DNA of 64,000 nt from Alphaproteobacteria bacterium (GTDB lineage Bacteria; Pseudomonadota; Alphaproteobacteria; UBA828; JAPUJA01), in assembly GCA_965198325.1 (NCBI GenBank), contig CBDAPE010000019.1:75284-139283 (forward strand), given 5' to 3'. The notes beneath the pieces are model-generated. The model had not been told where the DNA came from, made no database searches, and was given only the letters and a program-made list of their open reading frames with translations. Positions 1-61,420 of the stretch are shown here, piece by piece; the first letter of the stretch is position 1, and every line of letters starts with the position of its first letter. A program made the translations under genes and the position numbers.

Positions 1-982
1 CGGCGCGACCTCCGGGGACAGCCGCGTAACGCCTGACGTAAGCCTGCACCGCACCCGCCAGCATGACACCCGGCCGGTCGTTATCGGCGAAGACGAGCGG
101 GCGCTCGTGAGCGCCGGTTGCCAGAACGACCCGCTTGGCGTCGATGTGCCAGAGGCGTTGGCGTGCCAGCCCGGGTGCGGCGCCCGGCTCCAGATGATCC
201 GTTCGTCGCTCGAGCGTCGCCAGATGGTTGTGATCGTAATAGCCGAAGACGGTGGTGCGCGGCAGGAGCCGGACCTCCGCTGTAGAACTCAGCTCCGCAA
301 GCGTTTCCGTCGCCCAGCGCTCGGCCGGCGCGCCGTTCAGGGTCCGGTTCCGGGCAAGCAGGCTGCCGCCGATCTCCGCCTGCTCGTCGGCGAGTATGAC
401 ACGCGCACCCGAGCGCGCCGCGGCCAATGTGGCTGCAAGCCCCGCTGGCCCACCACCGACGATGAGAACGTCGCAATGGACATGCATCTTGTCGTAAATA
501 TCCGGATCGGGCCCTTCAGGCGTGCGGCCCAGCCCCGCCATGCGCCGGATCGCAGGCTCGTAGAGCCGCTGCCATAGAGCCGGAGGCCACATGAAAGTCT
601 TGTAATAGAAGCCGGCCGCAAACAGCTTGGCAAAGCGATTGTTTATCGCGCCGAAATCCCGCTCGACACTGGGCCAGGCGTTGACGCCACGGGCGATCAG
701 CCCGCCATAGAGCTCGACCTGCGTGGCGCGGAGATTGGGTTCGCTATAGGCACCCTCGGCGAGCTGCACGAGTGCCGCAGGTTCCTCCGCGCCCGCCGAG
801 AGAATGCCCCGGGGACGGTGATATTTGAAGCTGCGGCTGATCAGATGAACGCCGTTCGCGAGCAGGGCGGACGCGAGCGTATCGCCCGCGAAACCCACAT
901 AGCGACGGCCGTTGAAGGTGAAGCGAAGCGGCCGGTTCCGATCGATCCGCCCACCCTTGGGCATCCTGAAACCTGCGCCCAT
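1..982 (-). CDS. soxA: Sarcosine oxidase alpha subunit, N-terminal part (runs off left edge)
   Basis: Manual translation from ATG at 982: MGAGFRMPKGGRIDRNRPLRFTFNGRRYVGFAGDTLASALLANGVHLISRSFKYHRPRGI, the typical SoxA N-terminus; directly follows soxD. Confidence 0.93.
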   Translation of the reverse strand, partial: MGAGFRMPKGGRIDRNRPLRFTFNGRRYVGFAGDTLASALLANGVHLISRSFKYHRPRGILSAGAEEPAALVQLAEGAYSEPNLRATQVELYGGLIARGVNAWPSVERDFGAINNRFAKLFAAGFYYKTFMWPPALWQRLYEPAIRRMAGLGRTPEGPDPDIYDKMHVHCDVLIVGGGPAGLAATLAAARSGARVILADEQAEIGGSLLARNRTLNGAPAERWATETLAELSSTAEVRLLPRTTVFGYYDHNHLATLERRTDHLEPGAAPGLARQRLWHIDAKRVVLATGAHERPLVFADNDRPGVMLAGAVQAYVRRYAAVPGGRA

Positions 983-984
983 GT

Positions 985-1272
985 TCAGTCTCTCTCTCCG
1001 GGCCCGGGCGGCCTCTCGCCCATCCTGTAGACCGCCGCAATTTCGTGACTCACGGTATGGCGAAGGGTGTTGAACCAGCGCCGGCAGCCCTGGGCATGGA
1101 ACCATCGCTCCCGGTGCCAACCCTTGGGGTTATGTCGCATGAAGAGATAGTCGGCCCAGTCTTCATCGGACTGAGCATTGGGCTCCTCGGGGCGCACGAT
1201 ATGGGCCTCGCCGCCGCAACGGAACTCGGTTTCGGGCCGCGCGCCGCACCAGGGACAGGGGATCGTCAGCAT
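985..1272 (-). CDS. soxD: Sarcosine oxidase delta subunit
   Basis: MLTIPCPWCGARPETEF...HAQGCRRWFN Zn-binding CPxCG/HxxGC pattern; start trimmed from the 985..1503 ORF to ATG 1272. Confidence 0.95.
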   Translation of the reverse strand: MLTIPCPWCGARPETEFRCGGEAHIVRPEEPNAQSDEDWADYLFMRHNPKGWHRERWFHAQGCRRWFNTLRHTVSHEIAAVYRMGERPPGPGERD

Positions 1273-1285
1273 GGGTTCTGCGCTC

Positions 1286-2536
1286 CTAATGGGCCACGGC
1301 GGCCGCGCCGTGCTCGTCAACCAACGCGCCACTCGCAAACCGGTCGAGCGAGAACGCGGCATTGAGCGCGTGGGGCGCATCGTTGGCGATGGTGTGAGCG
1401 AAGACCCAGCCTGACCCCGGCGTCGCCTTGAAGCCTCCGGTACCCCACCCGCCGTTGATATAGAGCCCGTCGACGGGCGTCTGCGAGATGATCGGCGAAG
1501 CATCCGGGCAGACGTCGACGATGCCGCCCCAGCTTCGCATCATTCGAAGCCGGCTGAAGATCGGGAACAGCTCGATGATCGCCCCCATCTGCTCCTCGAT
1601 GACATGCAGGCCGCCCCGCTGGCCGTAGGAAATGAAGCCGTCGATGCCGGCACCGATGACGAGCTCGCCCTTGTCGGACTGACTGACATAAACATGCACA
1701 GCGTTCGACATGACGACCGTCGGCATGACGGGCTTCAGCGGCTCCGAGACCAGGGCCTGCAAGGGGTGACTCTCGATCGGCAGGCGGATGCCCGCCATCG
1801 CGGCCAGGACCGAGTTATGCCCGGCTGCTACGATGCCGACCTTCTTAGCCTGAACGGTGCCCCGGGTGGTCTCAACGCCGACGACCCGGCCCGCAACGAC
1901 GGTGATACCCGTCACCTCACAATTCTGGATGACGTCGACGCCCCTGGCGTCGGCGCCGCGTGCGAAGCCCCAGGCAACGGCATCGTGACGCGCCACGCCG
2001 CCCCGGCGTTGCAGGGTCGAGCCCATCACGGGATAACGCGCGCTTCTCGAGACGTCGATGATCGGACAGAACGCCTTGACCTGGGCGGCCGTGAGCCACT
2101 CCGCGTCGACGCCGTTGAGCCGGTTCGCGTTGATGCGCCGGGTCGCCTCCTGCACGTCGTGAACGGTGTGGCAAAGATTCATCACGCCACGCTGGCTCAG
2201 CATGACGTTGTAGTTGAGATCCCGGGACAGACCTTCCCAAAGTTTGAGCGAATGCTCGTAGATCGCTGCGCTCTCGTCCCACAGATAGTTGGAGCGGATA
2301 ATCGTCGTGTTTCGCCCGGTATTGCCGCCGCCCAGCCAGCCTTTCTCGAGCACCGCGATGTTCGTGATCCCGTGCAGCTTGGCGAGGTAATAGGCGGTTG
2401 CCAGGCCGTGACCGCCGGCGCCGATGATGACCGCGTCGTAGACCGGCTTGGGCTCGGGATTGCGCCACTGGGGGCTCCAGCCCTCGTTATGGCCGAGCGC
2501 ATTACGCGCCAGGCTGAAGATCGAAAATTTGGTCAT
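1286..2536 (-). CDS. soxB: Sarcosine oxidase beta subunit (FAD)
   Basis: [17 protein letters not shown] motif, [31 protein letters not shown]; soxBDA order. Confidence 0.96.
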
Positions 2537-2650: not shown

Positions 2651-4450
2651 TCAGGCGCCGTCAGCTGTTCTGAGCGCTTCGGTCGCGAGGCCGTCGACTG
2701 CCAGGCTGTCGGGGTCGAGAACCACGCCGTAGAGTTCTTTTGCATCCTCGATCGTAATCAGCTCGTTGACGACGTCGTCCACAACCAGCGCGGGGTCGCG
2801 CTCGAAGGGGTTGCCGTAGCCGCCGCCCCCGGCGGTCCGGTGGCTGAGCAAAGTGCCGGCCGGAATCGAGACTGCACTTTTTTGGATGTAACGGGCCTCC
2901 TTGTCGGTTCCGGGATCGACAACCAGCTCGCTGCCACCTCCGGGTTGACCGCCAAACAAGCCATAGGGCGGGTATTTGTTGCGATCCAGCGCAATCGTGA
3001 ACTGCCCGGGGATCGTGATGTGGTAGTCGTAGATGATCCCGTACCCGCCGCGATGTTTGCCGGCGCCCGCCGAGCGTTCCTGCAGCTCGTAGCGCTCGGC
3101 AATGAGCGCCGGGAACTTAGTCTCCATGACCTCGATGGGGATGTTGTAGTTGTCTCCGCTGCCGAGTGAGACCATCGCCGTATTGCCATCGGCCTTTGCG
3201 CGCCCGCCCCAGCCGCCGGCGCCGCACCAGAAATGAACGAACTCCTGGCTGCTCTTGGGATCCTGACCCGAGATCGTCATGCAGCTAAAGCAGCCGAAGG
3301 TGCCCCCAATCACCTCACCGGGCAGCACGTCGGCCAGAGCTTGGAGAATGAGTTCGATCAGCCGTGTTCCGACGTCGCCCATACCTGTGGTGACCGGCGC
3401 AGGGTGCTGGGGCCGGAACACCGAACCGGGCTCGGCCGTGATGTGAATTGGCCGGTAGGAGCCCTCGTTGGCACCCAGCGACGTGTCGGCCAGGAACATG
3501 ATGGTCTCGCGCGACATCGAAACCGTATTGACCCAATGGCAATTTCCCGATGCGCCGTTACGCTGCCCGGCGCTGCCCGTGAAATCAATCGTGATATCGC
3601 TTCCCTCGACGGTGACGGCGACACAGATCGGGATCGGCTCGTCGCTTACGCCGTCGGCATCGGAAAATCCGGACGCCTCGTAAACCCCGTCGGGGACCTT
3701 CTCGATCGCCGCGCGGGTGATGCGCTCGCCATGATCGAGCAGGGCGTCGACCGCCCGATTCAGAAGCTGGGCACTGTTCTTCTCGAGCCAGGCGTGGGCC
3801 CGGATCTCGGCCGTCTTGCCGGCCGCGATCTGGGCCGCCAGGTCGCCCCGGGAGAGATGGGGCACGCGCATGTTGGAGAACAGAATTTCCTGGATTTCGC
3901 CGTTCATCTTGCCGGCGTCGGCGAGCTTGACCGGCGGAATGCTGATGCCCTCCTGATAGGTGTTTTGGGCGTCCGACGACCAGCTGCCGGGATCCTTGCC
4001 GCCAATGTCGAGATGGTGGGCCTTGTTCGCCGCCAGCATGACGAGCGCGCCCTCCCAGAATACGGGCATGACGATATTGATATCGTTCTTGTGGGTGCCC
4101 CCGCCGGTGTAGGGATCGTTCGACATGTAGATATCGCCGGGCTTCATTGCCGAGAGCGGAAAACGATCGGTGATCGCCTCGATGACGAAATTCATGCTGC
4201 CGTTGAAGATCGGGATACCCTCGGCCTGAGCAATCAGCCGGCCCTGGCCATCGAACAGCACGCATGAAAAATCGTGCACCTCGCGAATGATGGTGGAATA
4301 GGAGGTCCGGCCTAGGGTAATCGTCATTTCGTGGACGATCGAATTGAGCCCTGCGCGCACGACCTCGAGGGTCACGGCGTCGATCGTGCCGCCGCCCGAT
4401 CCATCGGTCTCCGTTTTCCCTGCCGCCATCACTGCCTCCTTGCCCGTCAT
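2651..4450 (-). CDS. Hydantoinase B / oxoprolinase family subunit (HyuB-like), copy 1
   Basis: RTSYSTIIREVHDFSC, SNDPYTGGGTHKND, HHLDIGG, TAGGGGYGNP motifs; overlaps stop of the A subunit. Confidence 0.9.
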   Translation of the reverse strand: MTGKEAVMAAGKTETDGSGGGTIDAVTLEVVRAGLNSIVHEMTITLGRTSYSTIIREVHDFSCVLFDGQGRLIAQAEGIPIFNGSMNFVIEAITDRFPLSAMKPGDIYMSNDPYTGGGTHKNDINIVMPVFWEGALVMLAANKAHHLDIGGKDPGSWSSDAQNTYQEGISIPPVKLADAGKMNGEIQEILFSNMRVPHLSRGDLAAQIAAGKTAEIRAHAWLEKNSAQLLNRAVDALLDHGERITRAAIEKVPDGVYEASGFSDADGVSDEPIPICVAVTVEGSDITIDFTGSAGQRNGASGNCHWVNTVSMSRETIMFLADTSLGANEGSYRPIHITAEPGSVFRPQHPAPVTTGMGDVGTRLIELILQALADVLPGEVIGGTFGCFSCMTISGQDPKSSQEFVHFWCGAGGWGGRAKADGNTAMVSLGSGDNYNIPIEVMETKFPALIAERYELQERSAGAGKHRGGYGIIYDYHITIPGQFTIALDRNKYPPYGLFGGQPGGGSELVVDPGTDKEARYIQKSAVSIPAGTLLSHRTAGGGGYGNPFERDPALVVDDVVNELITIEDAKELYGVVLDPDSLAVDGLATEALRTADGA

Positions 4451-55124: not shown

Positions 55125-57626
<2,502 letters not shown>

Positions 57627-58013
57627 ATTGAGAGAGCCGGCGCGAGTGCGTTGTCAGAGCAAATCGGCTTGAGCCGCCTGGCGAGGTCCCTTAACGTCTA
57701 GGAATGAAAACCCCTTCCGATATTTCGACAGTTCACTCGAGATCCGGAGGCGCTGGTATCATCATCATTGGTATTCGAACTGGCGCTGGCACCTCGATGA
57801 GGTGTTCGTGCGGATCAACGGCGAAGACCTGCTATTTGTGGCGCGCGGTTGACCACGAAGGAGAAGTGCTCGAGGTTTTTGCCACGAAACGGCAGGATCG
57901 CAGGGCAGCACTCAGGTTTCTGAAGCGATGGAGTGGACGCCCCCATCCGACGGCGTCATAAGCGCCAGGAAGGAACGCACGCGGGGTGCGTTCGATCGAC
58001 GAAGGAGGCGTCC

Positions 58014-59051
58014 ATGGAGCAAGTTACTATCGTCGGCATCGACATTTCAAAGAGGAGTTTTCAACTTCATGGGGCGACGGCGGAAGGCAAGCCTGTGTTC
58101 GGCAAGAAGCTTTCGCGAGAAAAGCTCCTCGTATTCCTCTCCGAAACGCCGCCGTGCCTGGTTGTGATGGAGGCCTGCGGCAGCGCGCATCACTGGGGTC
58201 GACAGATCGTCGCTCTTAGTCACACGTGCAAGCCGATCCCGCCGATCTATGTCAAACCGTTTCTCAAGCGCCAGAAGAATGACAGTAACGACGCGGCCGC
58301 GATCGTCGAGGCGGCACAGCGCCCGACCATGCGGTTCGTGGCAGTGAAGTTGGAGGAGGCGCAGGCGGATGCAATGTTGTTCCGCACCCGCGCACTGCTT
58401 GTCCGCCAGCGCACGCAGACGATCGATTCACTCCGGGGCCAGCTGGCGGAATTCGGCACGATCGCGGCCCAGGGTGTGGCGGGCGTCGCGGCGATGCGGC
58501 TTGAGTTGGCAGAAGTGGAAGGGTTGCTTCCCGAACAGGTCGTGTCGATGGCCAAACTGCTGTTCGAGCAGGTTGCCGCACTCAGCCAGAAGATCGCCGG
58601 CCTTGAGAAGGAGATCCGTTCCCGGACCCGGGCGCGCGAGGACATGAAGCGGCTGATGACGATCCCCGGCATCGGCCCGATCTGTGCGATGGCGCTGCAT
58701 GCCTTTGCGCCGCCGATGGAGAGCTTCGGCCGCGGGCGCGACTTCGCGGCCTGGGTCGGGCTGACACCGCGGCAGCACTCGACGGCCGGCAAGCAGCGGC
58801 TCGGCCGGATCACCAAGATGGGGCAGCGCGATCTTCGCCAGTTGCTCGTCCTGGGCGCAACGTCGGTGCTCCGGCATATGCGCAAGCGCGAGAAGCTGGA
58901 TGATCCCTGGCTGCGGAGGACGATCGCGGAAAAGCCGCCGAAGCTGGTCGCCGTCGCACTTGCGAACAAGATGGCGCGCATCATCTGGGCGCTGTCGGTC
59001 GGGAAGGACACCTACCGGGCGTCAGCAGCGGTTGCCGCTGGTGCGGAATAG
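58014..59051 (+). CDS. IS110/IS1111 DEDD recombinase (345 aa, intact)
   Basis: GIDISK, VMEACG, KNDSNDA, IPGIG, PRQHSTAGK, ALANKMAR. Confidence 0.93.
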   Translation: MEQVTIVGIDISKRSFQLHGATAEGKPVFGKKLSREKLLVFLSETPPCLVVMEACGSAHHWGRQIVALSHTCKPIPPIYVKPFLKRQKNDSNDAAAIVEAAQRPTMRFVAVKLEEAQADAMLFRTRALLVRQRTQTIDSLRGQLAEFGTIAAQGVAGVAAMRLELAEVEGLLPEQVVSMAKLLFEQVAALSQKIAGLEKEIRSRTRAREDMKRLMTIPGIGPICAMALHAFAPPMESFGRGRDFAAWVGLTPRQHSTAGKQRLGRITKMGQRDLRQLLVLGATSVLRHMRKREKLDDPWLRRTIAEKPPKLVAVALANKMARIIWALSVGKDTYRASAAVAAGAE

Positions 59052-59367
59052 CTGCCTGGAAGAGGAAGCGTCTGTTTGGAATTGGAACACCGGGCTTCGC
59101 GGACACGCTCTTGAGGGCGTGATGCACGGATGACCCCGGTTGGTGCGGTTGGGACGAAAGACAACATAGGGGCAAAAGGTCAGAGAGACGGGGTCGGAAA
59201 AACCAGCATCTCGCGCAGGGCTGTCAAGCATACCGCTGAAGCGATCTGGATCCGATCCACGAACACCATATGGGCCCGCGGCGCATGCATGCCGCACTTG
59301 AGAGGCCGGACATACGACAGTACCTGACCGCATGTCACGAGTTGTTCAAATTCCTGCTTGCACTGCA
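59052..59367 (+). ncRNA. Putative bridge/seek RNA in 3' non-coding region of the IS1111-type element
   Basis: About 315-nt non-coding region after tnp containing CTGAAGCG and TCGCGC (target-matching) and ACATACGA and CCAT (donor-junction-matching); RNA boundaries not determinable. Confidence 0.65.
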
Positions 59368-59758
59368 GGGGGCGTCCACATACGCGCGATGAAGCGTTAT
59401 GGCCGTCCGGCTTCAGTCGTGACGGACGGGCTTCCGTCCTACCGGGCTGCGATGACTGTGATAGGCAACGCGGCCGCCCGGACCTGCGGTCGTTGGCTCA
59501 ATAACCGGGCGGAAAACTCGCACCAACCGTTTCGAAGGCGGGAAGGGGCGATGGCGCGGTTCAAGCAAGACCCTGCAGAAATTCGCCTCCATCCACGCCT
59601 CGATCCACAACCATTTCAACCACGACCGCCATCTCAACCGACGCGATACTTTCAAACAAGACCGAGCCGCCGCCTTGGCCGAGTGGCGTCAGCTGGCTGC
59701 CTGAGAGGCCTGGATTATTGGTTCTTCAGGCCCGATCCAGTTAGTCTGACAATGCCCG

Positions 59759-59775
59759 GTTAACTTGACAAAGCC
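59759..59775 (+). repeat. Orphan IS6-like IR identical in core to the MITE right end
   Basis: GTTAACTTGACAAAG also at 62542-62556. Confidence 0.6.
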
Positions 59776-59896
59776 TCATCGAGCACCGGCGCTTGCACCA
59801 CCGCAAGTCCGCCGCCTAGAATGATCAACCAGATGTGCGAGGGCCTCCGTTAGTTCTTCCGGCCATCTGTCTAAATTTATCTGATGATGGACACAG

Positions 59897-60586
59897 GTGC
59901 ATGGCGAAATTATTTTCAGATTTATGGACGATCAAATGGAAGTGATCGCCGAATCCACCGGGTTGCTGACCAGGGGTGGCCCGGTGATGCTGGTCCTCTT
60001 ACTGGCATCGGTGGTGGCGGTCGTGATTATCCTAGTCAAACTGTATCATTTCTGGCGCGCCGGTCTCGGCCATACCGAATTTGTTTCTCTGGTCATGCAG
60101 GACCTCCAGCGAGGCGAACGGGAGCGGGCCTTGCATGCGCTTGGCATCCGGTTTCATCCGGTCGCGCGCGTCATGGAAACCGCGATTCTGCTCGGGGACG
60201 ATCGGGAGCTGAGCTCGGAGGACCGCGAGGCTGAGATTGATCGGGTGGGCACCGCCGAGGTGCGAAATCTCGAAAGCTATCTGCGGGGTCTTGAGGTGAT
60301 CGCAAATTTGAGTCCGCTGCTTGGCCTTCTCGGCACGGTGCTTGGCATGATCAACGCGTTCTCCGAACTGGAGGCGGCGGGGAGCAAGGTCGATCCGGCG
60401 ATTCTTGCCGGCGGTATCTGGGAAGCCCTGTTGACCACCGCGTTCGGGCTCGTGGTTGCGATCCCGGCTCTTGCGGCCTATTACATGTTTGAAGGTCGGA
60501 TTGATACCGTGCGCGCAGCCATGAAGGACACCGTGGTCCGGGTCCTCGGGGTCACCGGGCGGGCCGGCAGGCTCGCGGTGGCCTGA
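59897..60586 (+). CDS. exbB: MotA/TolQ/ExbB proton channel protein
   Basis: SPLLGLLGTVLGMINAF, LAGGIWEALLTTAFGLVVAIP; start may be 59924. Confidence 0.88.
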   Translation: MHGEIIFRFMDDQMEVIAESTGLLTRGGPVMLVLLLASVVAVVIILVKLYHFWRAGLGHTEFVSLVMQDLQRGERERALHALGIRFHPVARVMETAILLGDDRELSSEDREAEIDRVGTAEVRNLESYLRGLEVIANLSPLLGLLGTVLGMINAFSELEAAGSKVDPAILAGGIWEALLTTAFGLVVAIPALAAYYMFEGRIDTVRAAMKDTVVRVLGVTGRAGRLAVA

Positions 60587-60603
60587 ATTCGGCGGGGCGG
60601 ACG

Positions 60604-61005
60604 ATGGATTTCACCGATCACGAAAGGACACGTCCGAAGCTCAACATCGCGCCCCTGATCGACGTCGTCTTCCTTCTCCTGGTCTTCTTCATGCTGGCAA
60701 GCTCGTTCGTGGAACCAAGTGCGTTCGACCTGTCGACGCCGCAACGCGACGCGGCGGCGCAGTCCGGTGGCGATCCGCTGGTAGTGGATGTTGCAGTTGG
60801 CGGCGAAATTCGACTGAACGGGCTTCTCTTGTCGACCGATCAGCTCGGCGCAGAGCTGTCGGAGCGGGTCGGCGATGTGTTGGAGCGGCCGGTTACGGTG
60901 CGTGCCGAGGCGACCGTGTCGGTGCAGCACTTAGTCTCGGTCATGGATCAGGTGCGTGGTGCGGGTCTCAAGAACGTACTGCTCGCAACCCCGGACACAC
61001 GCTGA
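60604..61005 (+). CDS. exbD: ExbD/TolR family protein
   Basis: LNIAPLIDVVFLLLVFFML. Confidence 0.9.
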   Translation: MDFTDHERTRPKLNIAPLIDVVFLLLVFFMLASSFVEPSAFDLSTPQRDAAAQSGGDPLVVDVAVGGEIRLNGLLLSTDQLGAELSERVGDVLERPVTVRAEATVSVQHLVSVMDQVRGAGLKNVLLATPDTR

Positions 61006-61015
61006 GCGGTCGAAT

Positions 61016-61420
61016 ATGGAATTCGCGGGGCGCAAGCCGTTGAGCGGTGGCGTCAACTTGGTGCCGCTGATCAACATCGTGTTCCTGCTTCTGATCTTCT
61101 TCATGGTGTCGAGCACTTTCATTACACCGGACGAATTCAACATCGATCTTCCGGAGTCCGAACAGGTGCAGGTGAGCCAATTGCAGCCGATCGTCGTGCT
61201 GATCGGCGTCGACGGCGGCCTCGCGCTCAACAACCGGGAACTTGATCTCGACGATCTCGAATCGTCCCTGGCCGCTGCGCTTGCGATCGATCCGGATGCG
61301 GAGGTCCTAATCAGAGCCGATGCGGAGGCGACTACGGCCGACGTCGTCAACGTTCTCAGACGCGCCCGCGCAGTGGGCATTGAGCGGGTCGCCATGGCGA
61401 CCCGCGAGGCTGTCCGGTGA
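61016..61420 (+). CDS. exbD: Second ExbD/TolR family protein
   Basis: NLVPLINIVFLLLIFFMV (N in place of the usual TM Asp), IRADAE. Confidence 0.85.
   Translation: MEFAGRKPLSGGVNLVPLINIVFLLLIFFMVSSTFITPDEFNIDLPESEQVQVSQLQPIVVLIGVDGGLALNNRELDLDDLESSLAAALAIDPDAEVLIRADAEATTADVVNVLRRARAVGIERVAMATREAVR

What the first reader, a model, noticed from the sequence alone, without database searches (positions are those of the whole stretch)
57926..59382. IS1111-type bridge/seek-RNA element whose guide segments match its IS6 target and its own circle junction
Seen: removing 57926-59382 rejoins TTT CTG AAG | CGC GCG ATG AAG CGT TAT (FLKRAMKRY) of the IS6 transposase, so the target is CTGAAG-CG-CGCGATG with a CG core. 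The 3' non-coding region holds CTGAAGCG (59236-59243, target left plus core) and TCGCGC (59211-59216, reverse complement of target right). It also holds ACATACGA (59310-59317, matching the predicted circle junction CCACATA-CG-ATGG) and a weaker CCAT (59266-59269). Joining the ends creates TTGCAC-17 nt-TACGAT, a junction promoter absent from the linear form. Established: IS110/IS1111 recombinases are RNA-guided and IS1111 members carry the RNA downstream of tnp. Inference: this is an intact RNA-programmed recombinase that targets IS6 transposase genes.
Basis: partly seen in the sequence, partly recalled or inferred. Interest (0 to 1): 0.85.

Follow-up and report, generated by a model that had tools for sequence, protein, structure and literature searches.

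The report
RNA-guided IS1111 element inside IS6
A 1,457-bp jumping gene of the known IS110/IS1111 "bridge/seek-RNA" kind sits inside the transposase gene of another jumping gene (IS6), and its own guide RNA spells out both that landing site and its own ends; it is a clear but ordinary new example of a mechanism published in 2024.

Summary
Window 57926-59382 is a discrete 1,457-bp IS1111-type element. It has a DEDD transposase gene (58014-59051), 12-bp subterminal inverted repeats and a 331-nt 3' non-coding region.

- **Boundaries:** 24 full-length relatives align exactly from base 1 to base 1457. Contigs from public runs carry the empty IS6 site.
- **Guides:** among about 50 relatives only two short blocks of the non-coding region vary, and they track the flanks. 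Block 59207-59215 follows the reverse complement of the right flank. Block 59235-59243 follows the left flank plus core. Both gave 0/5000 permutations, and the result repeated on a held-out set.
- **Donor side:** ACAUACGA (59310-59317) changes with the right-end and core sequence in distant relatives.
- **Structure:** a consensus fold has 94% of cells paired and 13 compensatory pairs. All four segments lie in unpaired loops.
- **Correction:** the right target guide is CAUCUCGCG, matching 8/9. Other samples carry CAUCGCGCG, a perfect 9/9 match.

One side point is mildly interesting. The closest relatives also sit in other mobile-element genes, with guides differing by a few bases. Activity of this copy is untested.

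The parts
57926..59382 (+). Complete IS1111-type element (1,457 bp), counted with the left copy of the CG core
   Evidence: 24 homologues align 1..1457 with unrelated flanks. Empty-site contigs occur in public runs.
57926..57927 (+). Core dinucleotide CG, left copy. The right copy is 59383-59384 in the IS6 flank.
   Evidence: CG (TG in distant relatives) is present at both junctions. The core letters in the LTG, RTG and LDG change with it.
57933..57944 (+). Left subterminal inverted repeat GTGGACGCCCCC, preceded by the 7-nt extension CGATGGA
   Evidence: Exact 12-mer found only here and, inverted, at 59368-59379. Conserved in homologues.
58002..58008 (+). Ribosome-binding site AAGGAGG, 5 nt before the ATG
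   Evidence: Read directly from the sequence
58014..59051 (+). DEDD transposase/recombinase gene, 345 aa
   Evidence: Pfam PF01548 + PF02371. NCBIfam NF033542 'IS110 family RNA-guided transposase', 301.8 bits against a cutoff of 140. D10, E53, D90 and D93 are invariant in 52 homologues, and the GLTPRQHSTAG motif is present.
59052..59382 (+). 3' non-coding region / right end (331 nt, against 88 nt on the left)
   Evidence: A long right end is typical of IS1111 (PMC11208160, PMC11187229).
59178..59329 (+). Structured guide RNA core, closed by P1 (GGUCAG 59178-59183 with CUGACC 59324-59329)
   Evidence: P1 is compensated in relatives: AGUCGG/CCGACU, GGUCAG/CUGGCC. The single-sequence MFE recovers P1, P2, P3 and P5. 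Covariance model R1 hit at 167 bits.
59192..59257 (+). Target-binding arm. P2 is 59192-59198 with 59251-59257. P3 is CCAG 59203-59206 with CUGG 59246-59249. An internal loop follows, then the cap hairpin 59218-59234.
   Evidence: RNAalifold and pair counts: P2 has 5 of 7 pairs with compensatory changes and 97.6% of cells paired.
59207..59215 (+). Right target guide (RTG) CAUCUCGCG, on the 5' side of the internal loop. It is complementary to the top strand of core + right flank (CGCGCGATG) at 8/9.
   Evidence: Covaries with right flanks: 5.5/7 against 3.8 shuffled, 0/5000. Held-out set: 5.58 against 4.03, 0/5000. The variant with G at 59211 (9/9) occurs in runs X26 and X38.
59235..59243 (+). 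Left target guide (LTG) GCUGAAGCG, on the 3' side of the loop. It is identical to the top strand of left flank + core (tCTGAAG-CG) at 8/9. It is followed by AU (59244-59245), which matches the first two bases of the left end after the core.
   Evidence: Covaries with left flanks: 5.43/7 against 3.55, 0/5000. Held-out set: 2/5000. In L056 the left end TGTTGG goes with the extension UGUU.
59263..59269 (+). Right donor guide ACACCAU, complementary to the left end ATGGAGT at 6/7, without the core
   Evidence: Unpaired in the consensus, 5' of P5. Changes to CUCCCAU or UCUCCAU in relatives whose left ends are ATGGGG or ATGGAG. This is the weakest of the four.
59273..59307 (+). P5 hairpin that separates the two donor guides: GGCC 59273-59276 with GGCC 59304-59307, and inner GCGGC 59278-59282 with GCCGC 59291-59295
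   Evidence: 100% and 99.3% of cells paired, with 3 compensated pairs
59310..59317 (+). Left donor guide ACAUACGA, identical to the circle junction cACATA-CG-Atgg
   Evidence: Changes with the right end plus core in relatives: ACAGAUG with CACAGA-TG, ACACAUG with CACACA-TG, ACACACG with CACACA-CG, AGAUACG with CAGATA-CG.
59358..59363 (+). -35-like TTGCAC of the junction promoter. The -10-like TACGAT forms only when 59381-59382 (TA) is joined to 57926-57929 (CGAT).
   Evidence: TTGC is invariant. The spacer to the junction hexamer is 17 nt in 24 of 28 distinct junctions and 18 nt in 3; the last, L043 with its duplicated right end, measured 27. No sigma-70-like site exists in the linear element. 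Junction promoters are shown for relatives in PMC11187229.
59368..59379 (-). Right subterminal inverted repeat, followed by the 3-nt extension ATA (59380-59382)
57646..57925 (+). Left part of the host IS6-family element: left end about 57647, GCGTTGTCAGAGCAAA. The transposase gene is already degenerate.
   Evidence: Pfam DDE_Tnp_IS240. Alignment to an 84-89% identical IS6 in L027 shows a 141-bp internal deletion and a 1-nt insertion.
59383..59757 (+). Right part of the host IS6-family element, with its right end near 59741-59756
   Evidence: Pfam DDE_Tnp_IS240, profile positions 50-118

Best explanation
Window 57926-59382 is an IS1111-group insertion sequence that moves by RNA-guided recombination.

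The proposed cycle is as follows. Excision joins the ends into a circle. The junction ...CCACATA-CG-ATGGAG... completes a promoter from TTGCAC, a 17-nt spacer and TACGAT. That promoter transcribes the DEDD recombinase gene and the 3' non-coding region.

A structured RNA of about 150 nt (59178-59329) from that region binds the recombinase. It presents two loops.

- **Target loop:** CAUCUCGCG (59207-59215) pairs with the top strand of core plus right target. GCUGAAGCG (59235-59243) pairs with the bottom strand of left target plus core. Together they specify CTGAAG-CG-CGCGATG in the IS6 transposase gene.
- **Donor loop:** ACACCAU (59263-59269) and ACAUACGA (59310-59317) read the element's own joined ends in the same way.

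Recombination at the shared CG core then inserts the circle.

**Shown here:** element boundaries, protein family, conserved RNA structure, and covariation of all target and left-donor guide positions with flanks and ends.

**Inferred from published relatives:** circle formation, promoter activity, RNA-protein complex and strand exchange.
For: - **Protein:** Pfam DEDD_Tnp_IS110 + Transposase_20. NCBIfam NF033542 'IS110 family RNA-guided transposase', 301.8 bits. Full-length similarity to IS4321/IS5075. The DEDD tetrad is invariant.
- **Boundaries:** homologues align 1..1457 and empty-site contigs exist.
- **Guides:** only two hypervariable blocks occur in the non-coding region. A permutation test gave 0/5000 on both sides. 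It was replicated on loci found by the covariance model and not used to build it, at 0/5000 and 2/5000.
- **Donor guide:** it tracks the right end plus core.
- **Structure:** 94.3% of cells paired against at most 47.7% when slid, 13 compensated pairs, 0/500 shuffles. The guides are unpaired.
- **Guide order:** it matches published IS1111 seekRNAs.
- **Junction -35:** conserved at fixed spacing.
- **Transcription:** non-coding-region contigs are present in four metatranscriptomes.
- **Perfect-match variant:** CAUCGCGCG occurs in runs X26 and X38.
Against: - No direct evidence of activity exists for this copy. No circle-junction joint appeared in 12 public runs, although these are assembled contigs that drop rare forms.
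- The RTG of this copy has one mismatch to its own flank.
- The thermodynamic signal alone is weak: z = -1.1 for the core and -0.14 for the whole non-coding region.
- The right donor guide matches only 6/7, lacks the core and covaries weakly.
- Rfam 15 gave no hit, so no curated model was matched.
- RNA ends and strand are not defined, because Logan contigs have no direction.
Confidence: 0.9

Rival explanations
1. The element is of this kind but this copy is a dead relic. It is a fossil insertion in an already decayed IS6, with a guide that has begun to drift (U at 59211), and it is no longer mobile.
For: The host IS6 is degenerate, with a 141-bp deletion and a frameshift. The RTG has one mismatch, while other samples carry the perfect G variant at high depth. 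No circle junction was seen. No second copy occurs in the window.
Against: The transposase ORF is intact at 345 aa with all invariant residues. Both ends and every conserved RNA position are intact. A single guide mismatch is well within what inserted relatives tolerate, at 6-8/9.
Confidence: 0.3
2. The IS6 site is an incidental or off-target landing rather than the programmed target. The guides are programmed for another sequence and IS6 merely resembles it.
For: Relatives with the same LTG but another RTG sit in three other transposase families with only 6/9 left-side matches, which shows loose half-site use. The RTG here is 8/9, not 9/9.
Against: The combined match is 16/18, or 17/18 with the G59211 variant found in X26 and X38. 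X26 and X39 also hold contigs across the junctions of this IS6 insertion. No better match was found in the window or in the 164 fetched loci.
Confidence: 0.1
3. The matches between the non-coding region and the flanks do not reflect RNA guiding. They could arise because flank sequence is copied into the element, or by chance in CG-rich DNA, with site choice made by the protein alone.
For: The target is a CG repeat, which allows alternative registers. Single-sequence folding is not significant.
Against: Covariation holds across 30 distinct guide pairs and in a held-out set, with the conserved core excluded from scoring. The guides lie in loops of a compensated structure. Experiments on ISEc11, ISPa11, ISKpn4 and IS621 show RNA guiding (PMC11187229, PMC11208160).
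Confidence: 0.02

Closest known systems
IS1111-family elements with seekRNA: ISEc11, ISPa11, ISKpn4/ISPst6 (Siddiquee et al. 2024, PMC11187229)
   Same: - DEDD transposase of 330-350 aa.
- Subterminal inverted repeats with a 7-nt left extension.
- Long non-coding region downstream of tnp.
- The segment complementary to the top strand lies 5' of the one complementary to the bottom strand, and the two overlap at the insertion point.
- A promoter forms at the circle junction.
- No target duplication beyond the shared core.
   Different: - The transposase is only distantly related; the annotated IS1111 members IS4321 and IS5075 are 37% identical. The nearest relatives are in uncultured Alphaproteobacteria MAGs, at up to 91%.
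- The target is different, inside an IS6 transposase gene.
- The RNA here is described only by comparative prediction, as an arm with an internal target loop plus donor guides around a second hairpin, all closed by an outer stem.
- No biochemical data exist.
IS621/IS622 bridge RNA recombinases, IS110 group (Durrant et al. 2024, PMC11208160; Hiraizumi et al. 2024, PMC11208158)
   Same: One RNA carries a target-binding and a donor-binding loop. Each loop has a left guide that includes the core and a right guide. The core dinucleotide is shared by donor and target. A junction promoter is present.
   Different: - In IS621 the RNA lies in the left end, upstream of the gene.
- The guide order within loops is reversed there.
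- IS621 has 2-3-bp rather than 12-bp subterminal repeats.
- The core is CT in IS621 and CG here.
- Here the donor guides lie in a multi-branch loop rather than a simple internal loop (prediction only).
ISEc21 (IS110 family), which targets the DDE codons of IS3-family transposase genes (PMC11187229, section 12)
   Same: An RNA-guided IS whose programmed target is the coding sequence of another insertion sequence's transposase.
   Different: ISEc21 belongs to the IS110 group, with an upstream non-coding region, and targets IS3. This element belongs to the IS1111 group and targets IS6, between the first and second catalytic D.
IS4321/IS5075, IS1111 family (Partridge & Hall 2003, cited in PMC11208160)
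   Same: IS1111-family members that insert site-specifically into another mobile element, in one orientation.
   Different: Their target is the 38-bp terminal inverted repeat of Tn21-family transposons, not a coding sequence.

Membership tests
IS110 family (DEDD, RNA-guided transposases) | Transposase with an N-terminal DEDD/RuvC-like domain (PF01548) and a C-terminal PF02371 domain | tested here: met
   PF01548 E = 2e-13 and PF02371 E = 6e-23. NF033542 at 301.8 bits against a cutoff of 140.
IS110 family (DEDD, RNA-guided transposases) | Conserved D-E-D-D catalytic residues and the C-terminal G-x-x-P-x4-S/T-G/A motif | tested here: met
   D10, E53, D90, D93, P252 and G259 are invariant in 52 distinct homologues. 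The motif reads GLTPRQHSTAG, the 'TA' variant mentioned in PMC11187229. The catalytic role was not assayed.
IS1111 group | Subterminal inverted repeats of 7-17 bp with short terminal extensions | tested here: met
   A 12-bp perfect repeat, GTGGACGCCCCC, at 57933-57944 and 59368-59379, with extensions of 7 nt on the left and 3 nt on the right.
IS1111 group | The long non-coding region lies downstream of tnp, so the right end is much longer than the left | tested here: met
   Right end 331 nt against left end 88 nt.
IS1111 group | Transposase related over its full length to IS1111-family transposases, 330-350 aa | tested here: met
   345 aa. Aligns over 97% of its length with IS4321 and IS5075 transposases at 37% identity, E = 1e-58. 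No phylogeny against IS110-group proteins was made.
seekRNA / bridge RNA systems | [quoted passage not shown] | tested here: met
   RTG 59207-59215 at 8/9 and LTG 59235-59243 at 8/9, sharing the CG core. Covariation gave 0/5000. The order matches PMC11187229 section 9.
seekRNA / bridge RNA systems | The RNA has segments matching the element's own joined ends (donor recognition) | tested here: met
   The left donor guide ACAUACGA matches the junction at 8/8 and changes with the right end plus core in relatives. The right donor guide, at 6/7, is weaker.
seekRNA / bridge RNA systems | Guide segments are displayed in loops of a conserved secondary structure | tested here: met
   30 pairs, 94.3% of cells paired, 13 compensated pairs, all four guides unpaired.
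seekRNA / bridge RNA systems | The RNA is made, binds the transposase, and is required for circle formation and insertion; changing the guides changes the target | not testable with these tools
   Only weak support exists: contigs covering 59135-59352 in four metatranscriptomes, with no strand or end information and possible DNA carry-over.
seekRNA / bridge RNA systems | A circular intermediate with abutted ends creates a promoter | tested here: inconclusive
   The sequence pattern is present and conserved. No circle-junction joint was found in 12 public runs, all kept as assembled contigs.
Rfam-curated RNA family | Match to a curated covariance model | tested here: not met
   No meaningful hit in Rfam 15. 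The family appears not to be represented there, so a model (R1) was built here instead.

The most novel reading that the evidence does not exclude
This clade of IS1111-type elements, found in sponge-associated and marine Alphaproteobacteria MAGs, may specialise in the coding sequences of other mobile elements.

Targets seen among relatives:
- IS6 at two different sites and in both orientations
- IS21-like
- IS1182-like
- IS1380-like
- an IS481-like rve gene
- a DruA-DDE gene
- a group II intron reverse transcriptase

The clade may move between these targets by one- to three-base changes in a single guide. A natural series at 59209-59211 fits this: CAUCUCGCG, CAUCGCGCG, CACCGCGCG, CACGGCGCG. 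In this reading the unchanged half-site is enough to seed insertions at the new target. That would make the clade a natural case of stepwise guide reprogramming and of IS-against-IS insertional inactivation.
Probability: 0.3. Interest if true: 0.5.

Novelty: new member of a known kind. Interest (0 to 1): 0.3.

Why it matters
For the mechanism it adds nothing new. Bridge/seek RNAs were described in 2024 and are predicted in 93% of catalogued IS1111 elements.

Its value lies in annotation and natural history:

- It is a cleanly delimited, apparently intact element with all four guides readable.
- It comes with a set of about 50 relatives giving 30 different natural guide pairs (42 with the held-out set), each alongside the sites where it landed. 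That set could be mined for mismatch tolerance and half-site rules.
- It shows that RNA-guided ISs in IS-rich symbiont genomes often use other transposase genes as multi-copy landing pads.

Tried and rejected
- **Rfam 15** on 57600-59800 with permissive thresholds gave only chance hits.
- **Single-sequence folding** of the whole non-coding region gave z = -0.14, which is uninformative. The 156-nt core gave z = -1.1.
No census of copies in the window's own genome could be made.
- **The look-up of encoding contigs** with the exact transposase found nothing on record.
- **Metagenome scans:** the 45-nt guide-specific pattern had no match. The 19-nt pattern gave 84 loci, none of which contains the element by BLAST, so they are chance matches.
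- **Target 15-mer and 21-mer searches** in the window and all loci found no second intact target. The nearest is CTGAAACGCGCGATG in the IS6 copies of L027 and L033.
- **Circle junction** (a 59382->57926 joint) was looked for in 12 runs and not seen.
- **Longest ORF across the junction** as a way to name targets was unreliable in high-GC DNA. Frames were chosen by GC3 and checked with Pfam.
- **The 141-bp deletion in the host IS6** was considered as a footprint of excision of an L027-type relative. This was rejected because the deletion ends in a TCCGG microhomology, not at that element's insertion point.
Full report
**What is there**

The stretch 57926-59382 is bounded on the left by ...TTTCTGAAG and on the right by CGCGCGATGAAGCGTTAT.... 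The two flanks translate to consecutive parts of one IS6-family transposase: Pfam DDE_Tnp_IS240 profile positions 16-49 and 50-118.

Inside lies one long ORF, 58014-59051, of 345 aa, preceded by AAGGAGG. It matches Pfam DEDD_Tnp_IS110 and Transposase_20. It also matches NCBIfam NF033542, 'IS110 family RNA-guided transposase', at 301.8 bits against a cutoff of 140. It aligns over 97% of its length with the IS1111-family transposases of IS4321 and IS5075 at 37% identity.

In 52 distinct homologues D10, E53, D90 and D93 are invariant, as are P252 and G259 of the GLTPRQHSTAG motif.

The element has a perfect 12-bp subterminal inverted repeat, GTGGACGCCCCC, at 57933-57944 and 59368-59379. These are the only two exact copies in the window. 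The left extension is 7 nt and the right extension 3 nt. The non-coding arms are 88 nt on the left and 331 nt on the right. These are the defining features of the IS1111 group.

**Boundaries**

A scan of one genome per species returned 80 loci that encode relatives at 50-91% amino-acid identity. Most are in uncultured Alphaproteobacteria MAGs. Twenty-four align with the element from base 1 to base 1457 and have unrelated flanks.

The left end CGATGGAGTGGACGCCCCC and the right end GGGGGCGTCCACATA are nearly invariant. Contigs from public runs, both DNA and metatranscriptome, several labelled sponge metagenome, contain the joint 57924->59382. This is the same IS6 sequence without the 1,457 bp. 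The insertion is therefore discrete and the target was CTGAAG-CG-CGCGATG.

**The guide segments**

Aligning the last 215-340 nt of about 50 elements shows a strongly conserved non-coding region with only two hypervariable blocks.

- **Block A** (window 59207-59215, CATCTCGCG) equals the reverse complement of core plus right flank. For example, L001-L006 have CACGGCGCG against the flank cgcgccgtg (9/9). L034 has CGTGGTACA against tgtaccacg (9/9). L013 is also 9/9.
- **Block B** (window 59235-59243, GCTGAAGCG) equals left flank plus core. For example, L034 has GCAAAAATG (9/9) and L021 has GCGTAAGCG (9/9).

The conserved core was excluded from scoring. One event per distinct guide pair was used (n = 30).

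| Side | Mean best match of 7 flank bases | Shuffled assignment | Shuffles reaching the observed value |
|---|---|---|---|
| Right | 5.50 | 3.81 (sd 0.16) | 0 of 5000 |
| Left | 5.43 | 3.55 (sd 0.18) | 0 of 5000 |

The window itself scores 8/9 on each side. The right-side mismatch is U59211 opposite C.

The CG repeat of the target allows that reading.

**Donor side**

ACATACGA (59310-59317) equals the predicted circle junction cACATA-CG-Atgg. It is invariant where the ends are invariant. In distant relatives it changes with them:

| Right end + core | Left donor guide |
|---|---|
| CACAGA + TG | ACAGAUG |
| CACACA + TG | ACACAUG |
| CACACA + CG | ACACACG |
| CAGATA + CG | AGAUACG |

ACACCAU (59263-59269) is complementary to the left end ATGGAGT at 6/7 without the core. 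It changes only partly with the left end, so it is the weakest of the four.

The two bases after the core in block B (AU) match the start of the left end. In L056, whose left end begins TGTT rather than TGAT, the RNA has UGUU. This recalls the 'handshake' extension of IS621 bridge RNAs. That comparison is a lead from memory, not a test.

**Structure**

RNAalifold on 30 non-redundant sequences (A1), plus an outer stem I added, gives 30 pairs in 7 helices. Of all cells 94.3% are paired, against at most 47.7% when partners are slid. Thirteen pairs have compensatory changes across 57 cells, and 0 of 500 shuffles reach the observed values.

In window coordinates the helices are:

| Helix | 5' strand | 3' strand |
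|---|---|---|
| P1 | 59178-59183 | 59324-59329 |
| P2 | 59192-59198 | 59251-59257 |
| P3 | 59203-59206 | 59246-59249 |
| Cap hairpin | 59218-59234 | |
| P5, outer | 59273-59276 | 59304-59307 |
| P5, inner | 59278-59282 | 59291-59295 |

Blocks A and B are the two strands of the internal loop between P3 and the cap. The donor segments flank P5 in the loop closed by P1.

The single-sequence fold recovers P1, P2, P3 and P5 but is not thermodynamically exceptional (z = -1.1).

A covariance model built from A1 (R1) finds exactly one hit in the window. It also finds a full-length hit about 100 nt downstream of tnp in 26 loci that were not used to build it (E = 1e-9 to 1e-36). On those held-out loci the guide-flank test repeats. 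The right side scores 5.58 against 4.03 (0/5000). The left side scores 4.82 against 3.95 (2/5000).

**Comparison with what is known**

The order found here, with the segment complementary to the top strand 5' of the one complementary to the bottom strand and the two overlapping at the insertion point, is the order reported for IS1111-family seekRNAs. It is the reverse of the IS110-type order (PMC11187229).

Durrant et al. predicted bridge RNAs in the right end of 93% of catalogued IS1111 elements (PMC11208160).

Junction promoters are documented for ISEc11 and others. Here TTGC sits at a fixed distance from the right end in all relatives. The spacer is 17 nt in 24 of 28 distinct junctions, 18 nt in 3 and 27 nt in L043. 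The -10-like hexamer TACGAT exists only across the joined ends. The linear element has no sigma-70-like site.

Targeting another IS's transposase gene also has precedent: ISEc21 targets the DDE codons of IS3-family genes.

So this is a new member of a known kind. Earlier notes of this scan on other genomes reached the same verdict for similar elements. I did not test those.

**Extras**

1. **Guide variants in other samples.** Public runs hold close relatives that differ from the window at exactly 59209-59211.
   - X26 (RNA) and X38 have only T59211G, giving CAUCGCGCG, a perfect 9/9 match to the IS6 site.
   - X26 and X39 also hold contigs across both junctions of this IS6 insertion.
   - X27 and X28 have CACCGCGCG.
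   - X25, X35 and X17 have CACGGCGCG, like L001-L006.
   - The window's U59211 therefore looks like a private change.

2. **Targets of relatives.** Reconstructed targets are mostly genes of other mobile elements (Pfam).

| Loci | Target |
|---|---|
| L007, L027, L030, L033 | A second site in the same IS6 family (ICHET\|VRFWW), in the opposite orientation; 84-89% nt identity for L027 and L033 |
| L001, L004, L005, L006 | An rve/HTH gene, IS21-like |
| L002 | DDE_Tnp_1_6 |
| L003 | DDE_Tnp_1_4 |
| L013 | DruA + DDE_Tnp_1 |
| L029 | rve/rve_3 |
| L035 | Group II intron reverse transcriptase |

   Others lie in a helicase-like gene, in a DUF6932 gene or between genes.

3. **Half-site use.** The L001-type elements keep the window's LTG, CUGAAGCG, yet their left flanks match it at only 6/9 while the right side is 9/9. 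This suggests that half-site matches can suffice. A 2026 preprint title on 'half-match recombination' (listed) points the same way. I did not read it.

**Limits**

- No circle junction was seen in public runs. These were all kept as assembled contigs, which drop rare forms.
- RNA evidence is limited to undirected metatranscriptome contigs covering about 59135-59352.
- Activity, RNA ends, protein binding and guide dependence remain inferred from published relatives.

Noticed in passing
window 57646-57925 and 59383-59757: The host IS6 copy was already broken apart from the insertion. Compared with an 84-89% identical IS6 in L027, it lacks 141 bp of the N-terminal coding region. The deletion lies between TCCGG microhomologies and removes the site where L027-type relatives insert. 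It also has one extra base near 57806 that shifts the frame.
   Followed up: partly
L007, L027, L030, L033 (junctions near 2413 and 3850-3874 of each locus): Close relatives (82-90% aa) sit in the same IS6 family at a different site (ACCGTAC-CG-TCTCATG, codons ICHET|VRFWW) and in the opposite orientation, with both target guides changed accordingly. In L027 and L033 the window's own target site is uninterrupted but reads CTGAAACGCGCGATG.
   Followed up: yes
L001-L006, L002, L003, L013, L029, L035: Relatives are inserted in genes of other mobile elements: IS21-like rve, DDE_Tnp_1_6, DDE_Tnp_1_4, DruA+DDE_Tnp_1, rve_3 and a group II intron reverse transcriptase. L001-type elements match their left flank at only 6/9 but their right flank at 9/9.
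   Followed up: partly
window 59209-59211, in runs X25-X28, X35, X38, X17: Four natural variants of the right target guide differ only at these three bases: CATCTCGCG, CATCGCGCG, CACCGCGCG and CACGGCGCG. The second is a perfect match to the IS6 site and is the form at high depth in X38.
   Followed up: partly
L007, L009, L030/L029/L028/L054, L068, L073: The dinucleotides at the two junctions are not always the same. L007 has TG on the left and GG on the right. L009 has CG and GG. L030 has CG and CA. L068 has TG and CG. The L030 subgroup has ACAUAGG in the donor guide and UG at the core position of its RTG. L030's LTG (CCAGUGCG) does not match its left flank (ACCGCAC-CG). None of this is explained.
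   Followed up: no
L026:3800-3991: Directly after the right end there are at least nine tandem copies, at a 22-bp period, of the terminal sequence GGGG(C)CGTCCACATA plus a spacer.
   Followed up: no
L012:3852-3943, L020 (left ends at 202 and 289; right ends at 3834 and 5179), L043:1666-1689: There are rearranged or tandem copies. L012 has a partial second non-coding region and right end directly after its right end. L020 has two nested or tandem elements. L043 has a 10-bp duplication of the right-end tip.
   Followed up: no
L056:498-515 and its non-coding region: The left end begins TGTTGG instead of TGATGG, and the two RNA bases after the core of the LTG are UU instead of AU. This is a handshake-guide-like covariation, seen in one lineage only.
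   Followed up: no
window 55125-57626 and 59897-61420: The IS6 with its passenger lies between a TonB-dependent receptor-like ORF of 833 aa and ExbB/ExbD-like ORFs. These assignments were read from the ORF translations and not checked with a family search.
   Followed up: no
window 57743-57823 and 59525-59686, in runs X1, X2, X4: IS6 segments reach summed contig depths of thousands, while the neighbouring unique sequence is at about 10-20. This IS6 family is therefore extremely abundant in these host-associated metagenomes.
   Followed up: no
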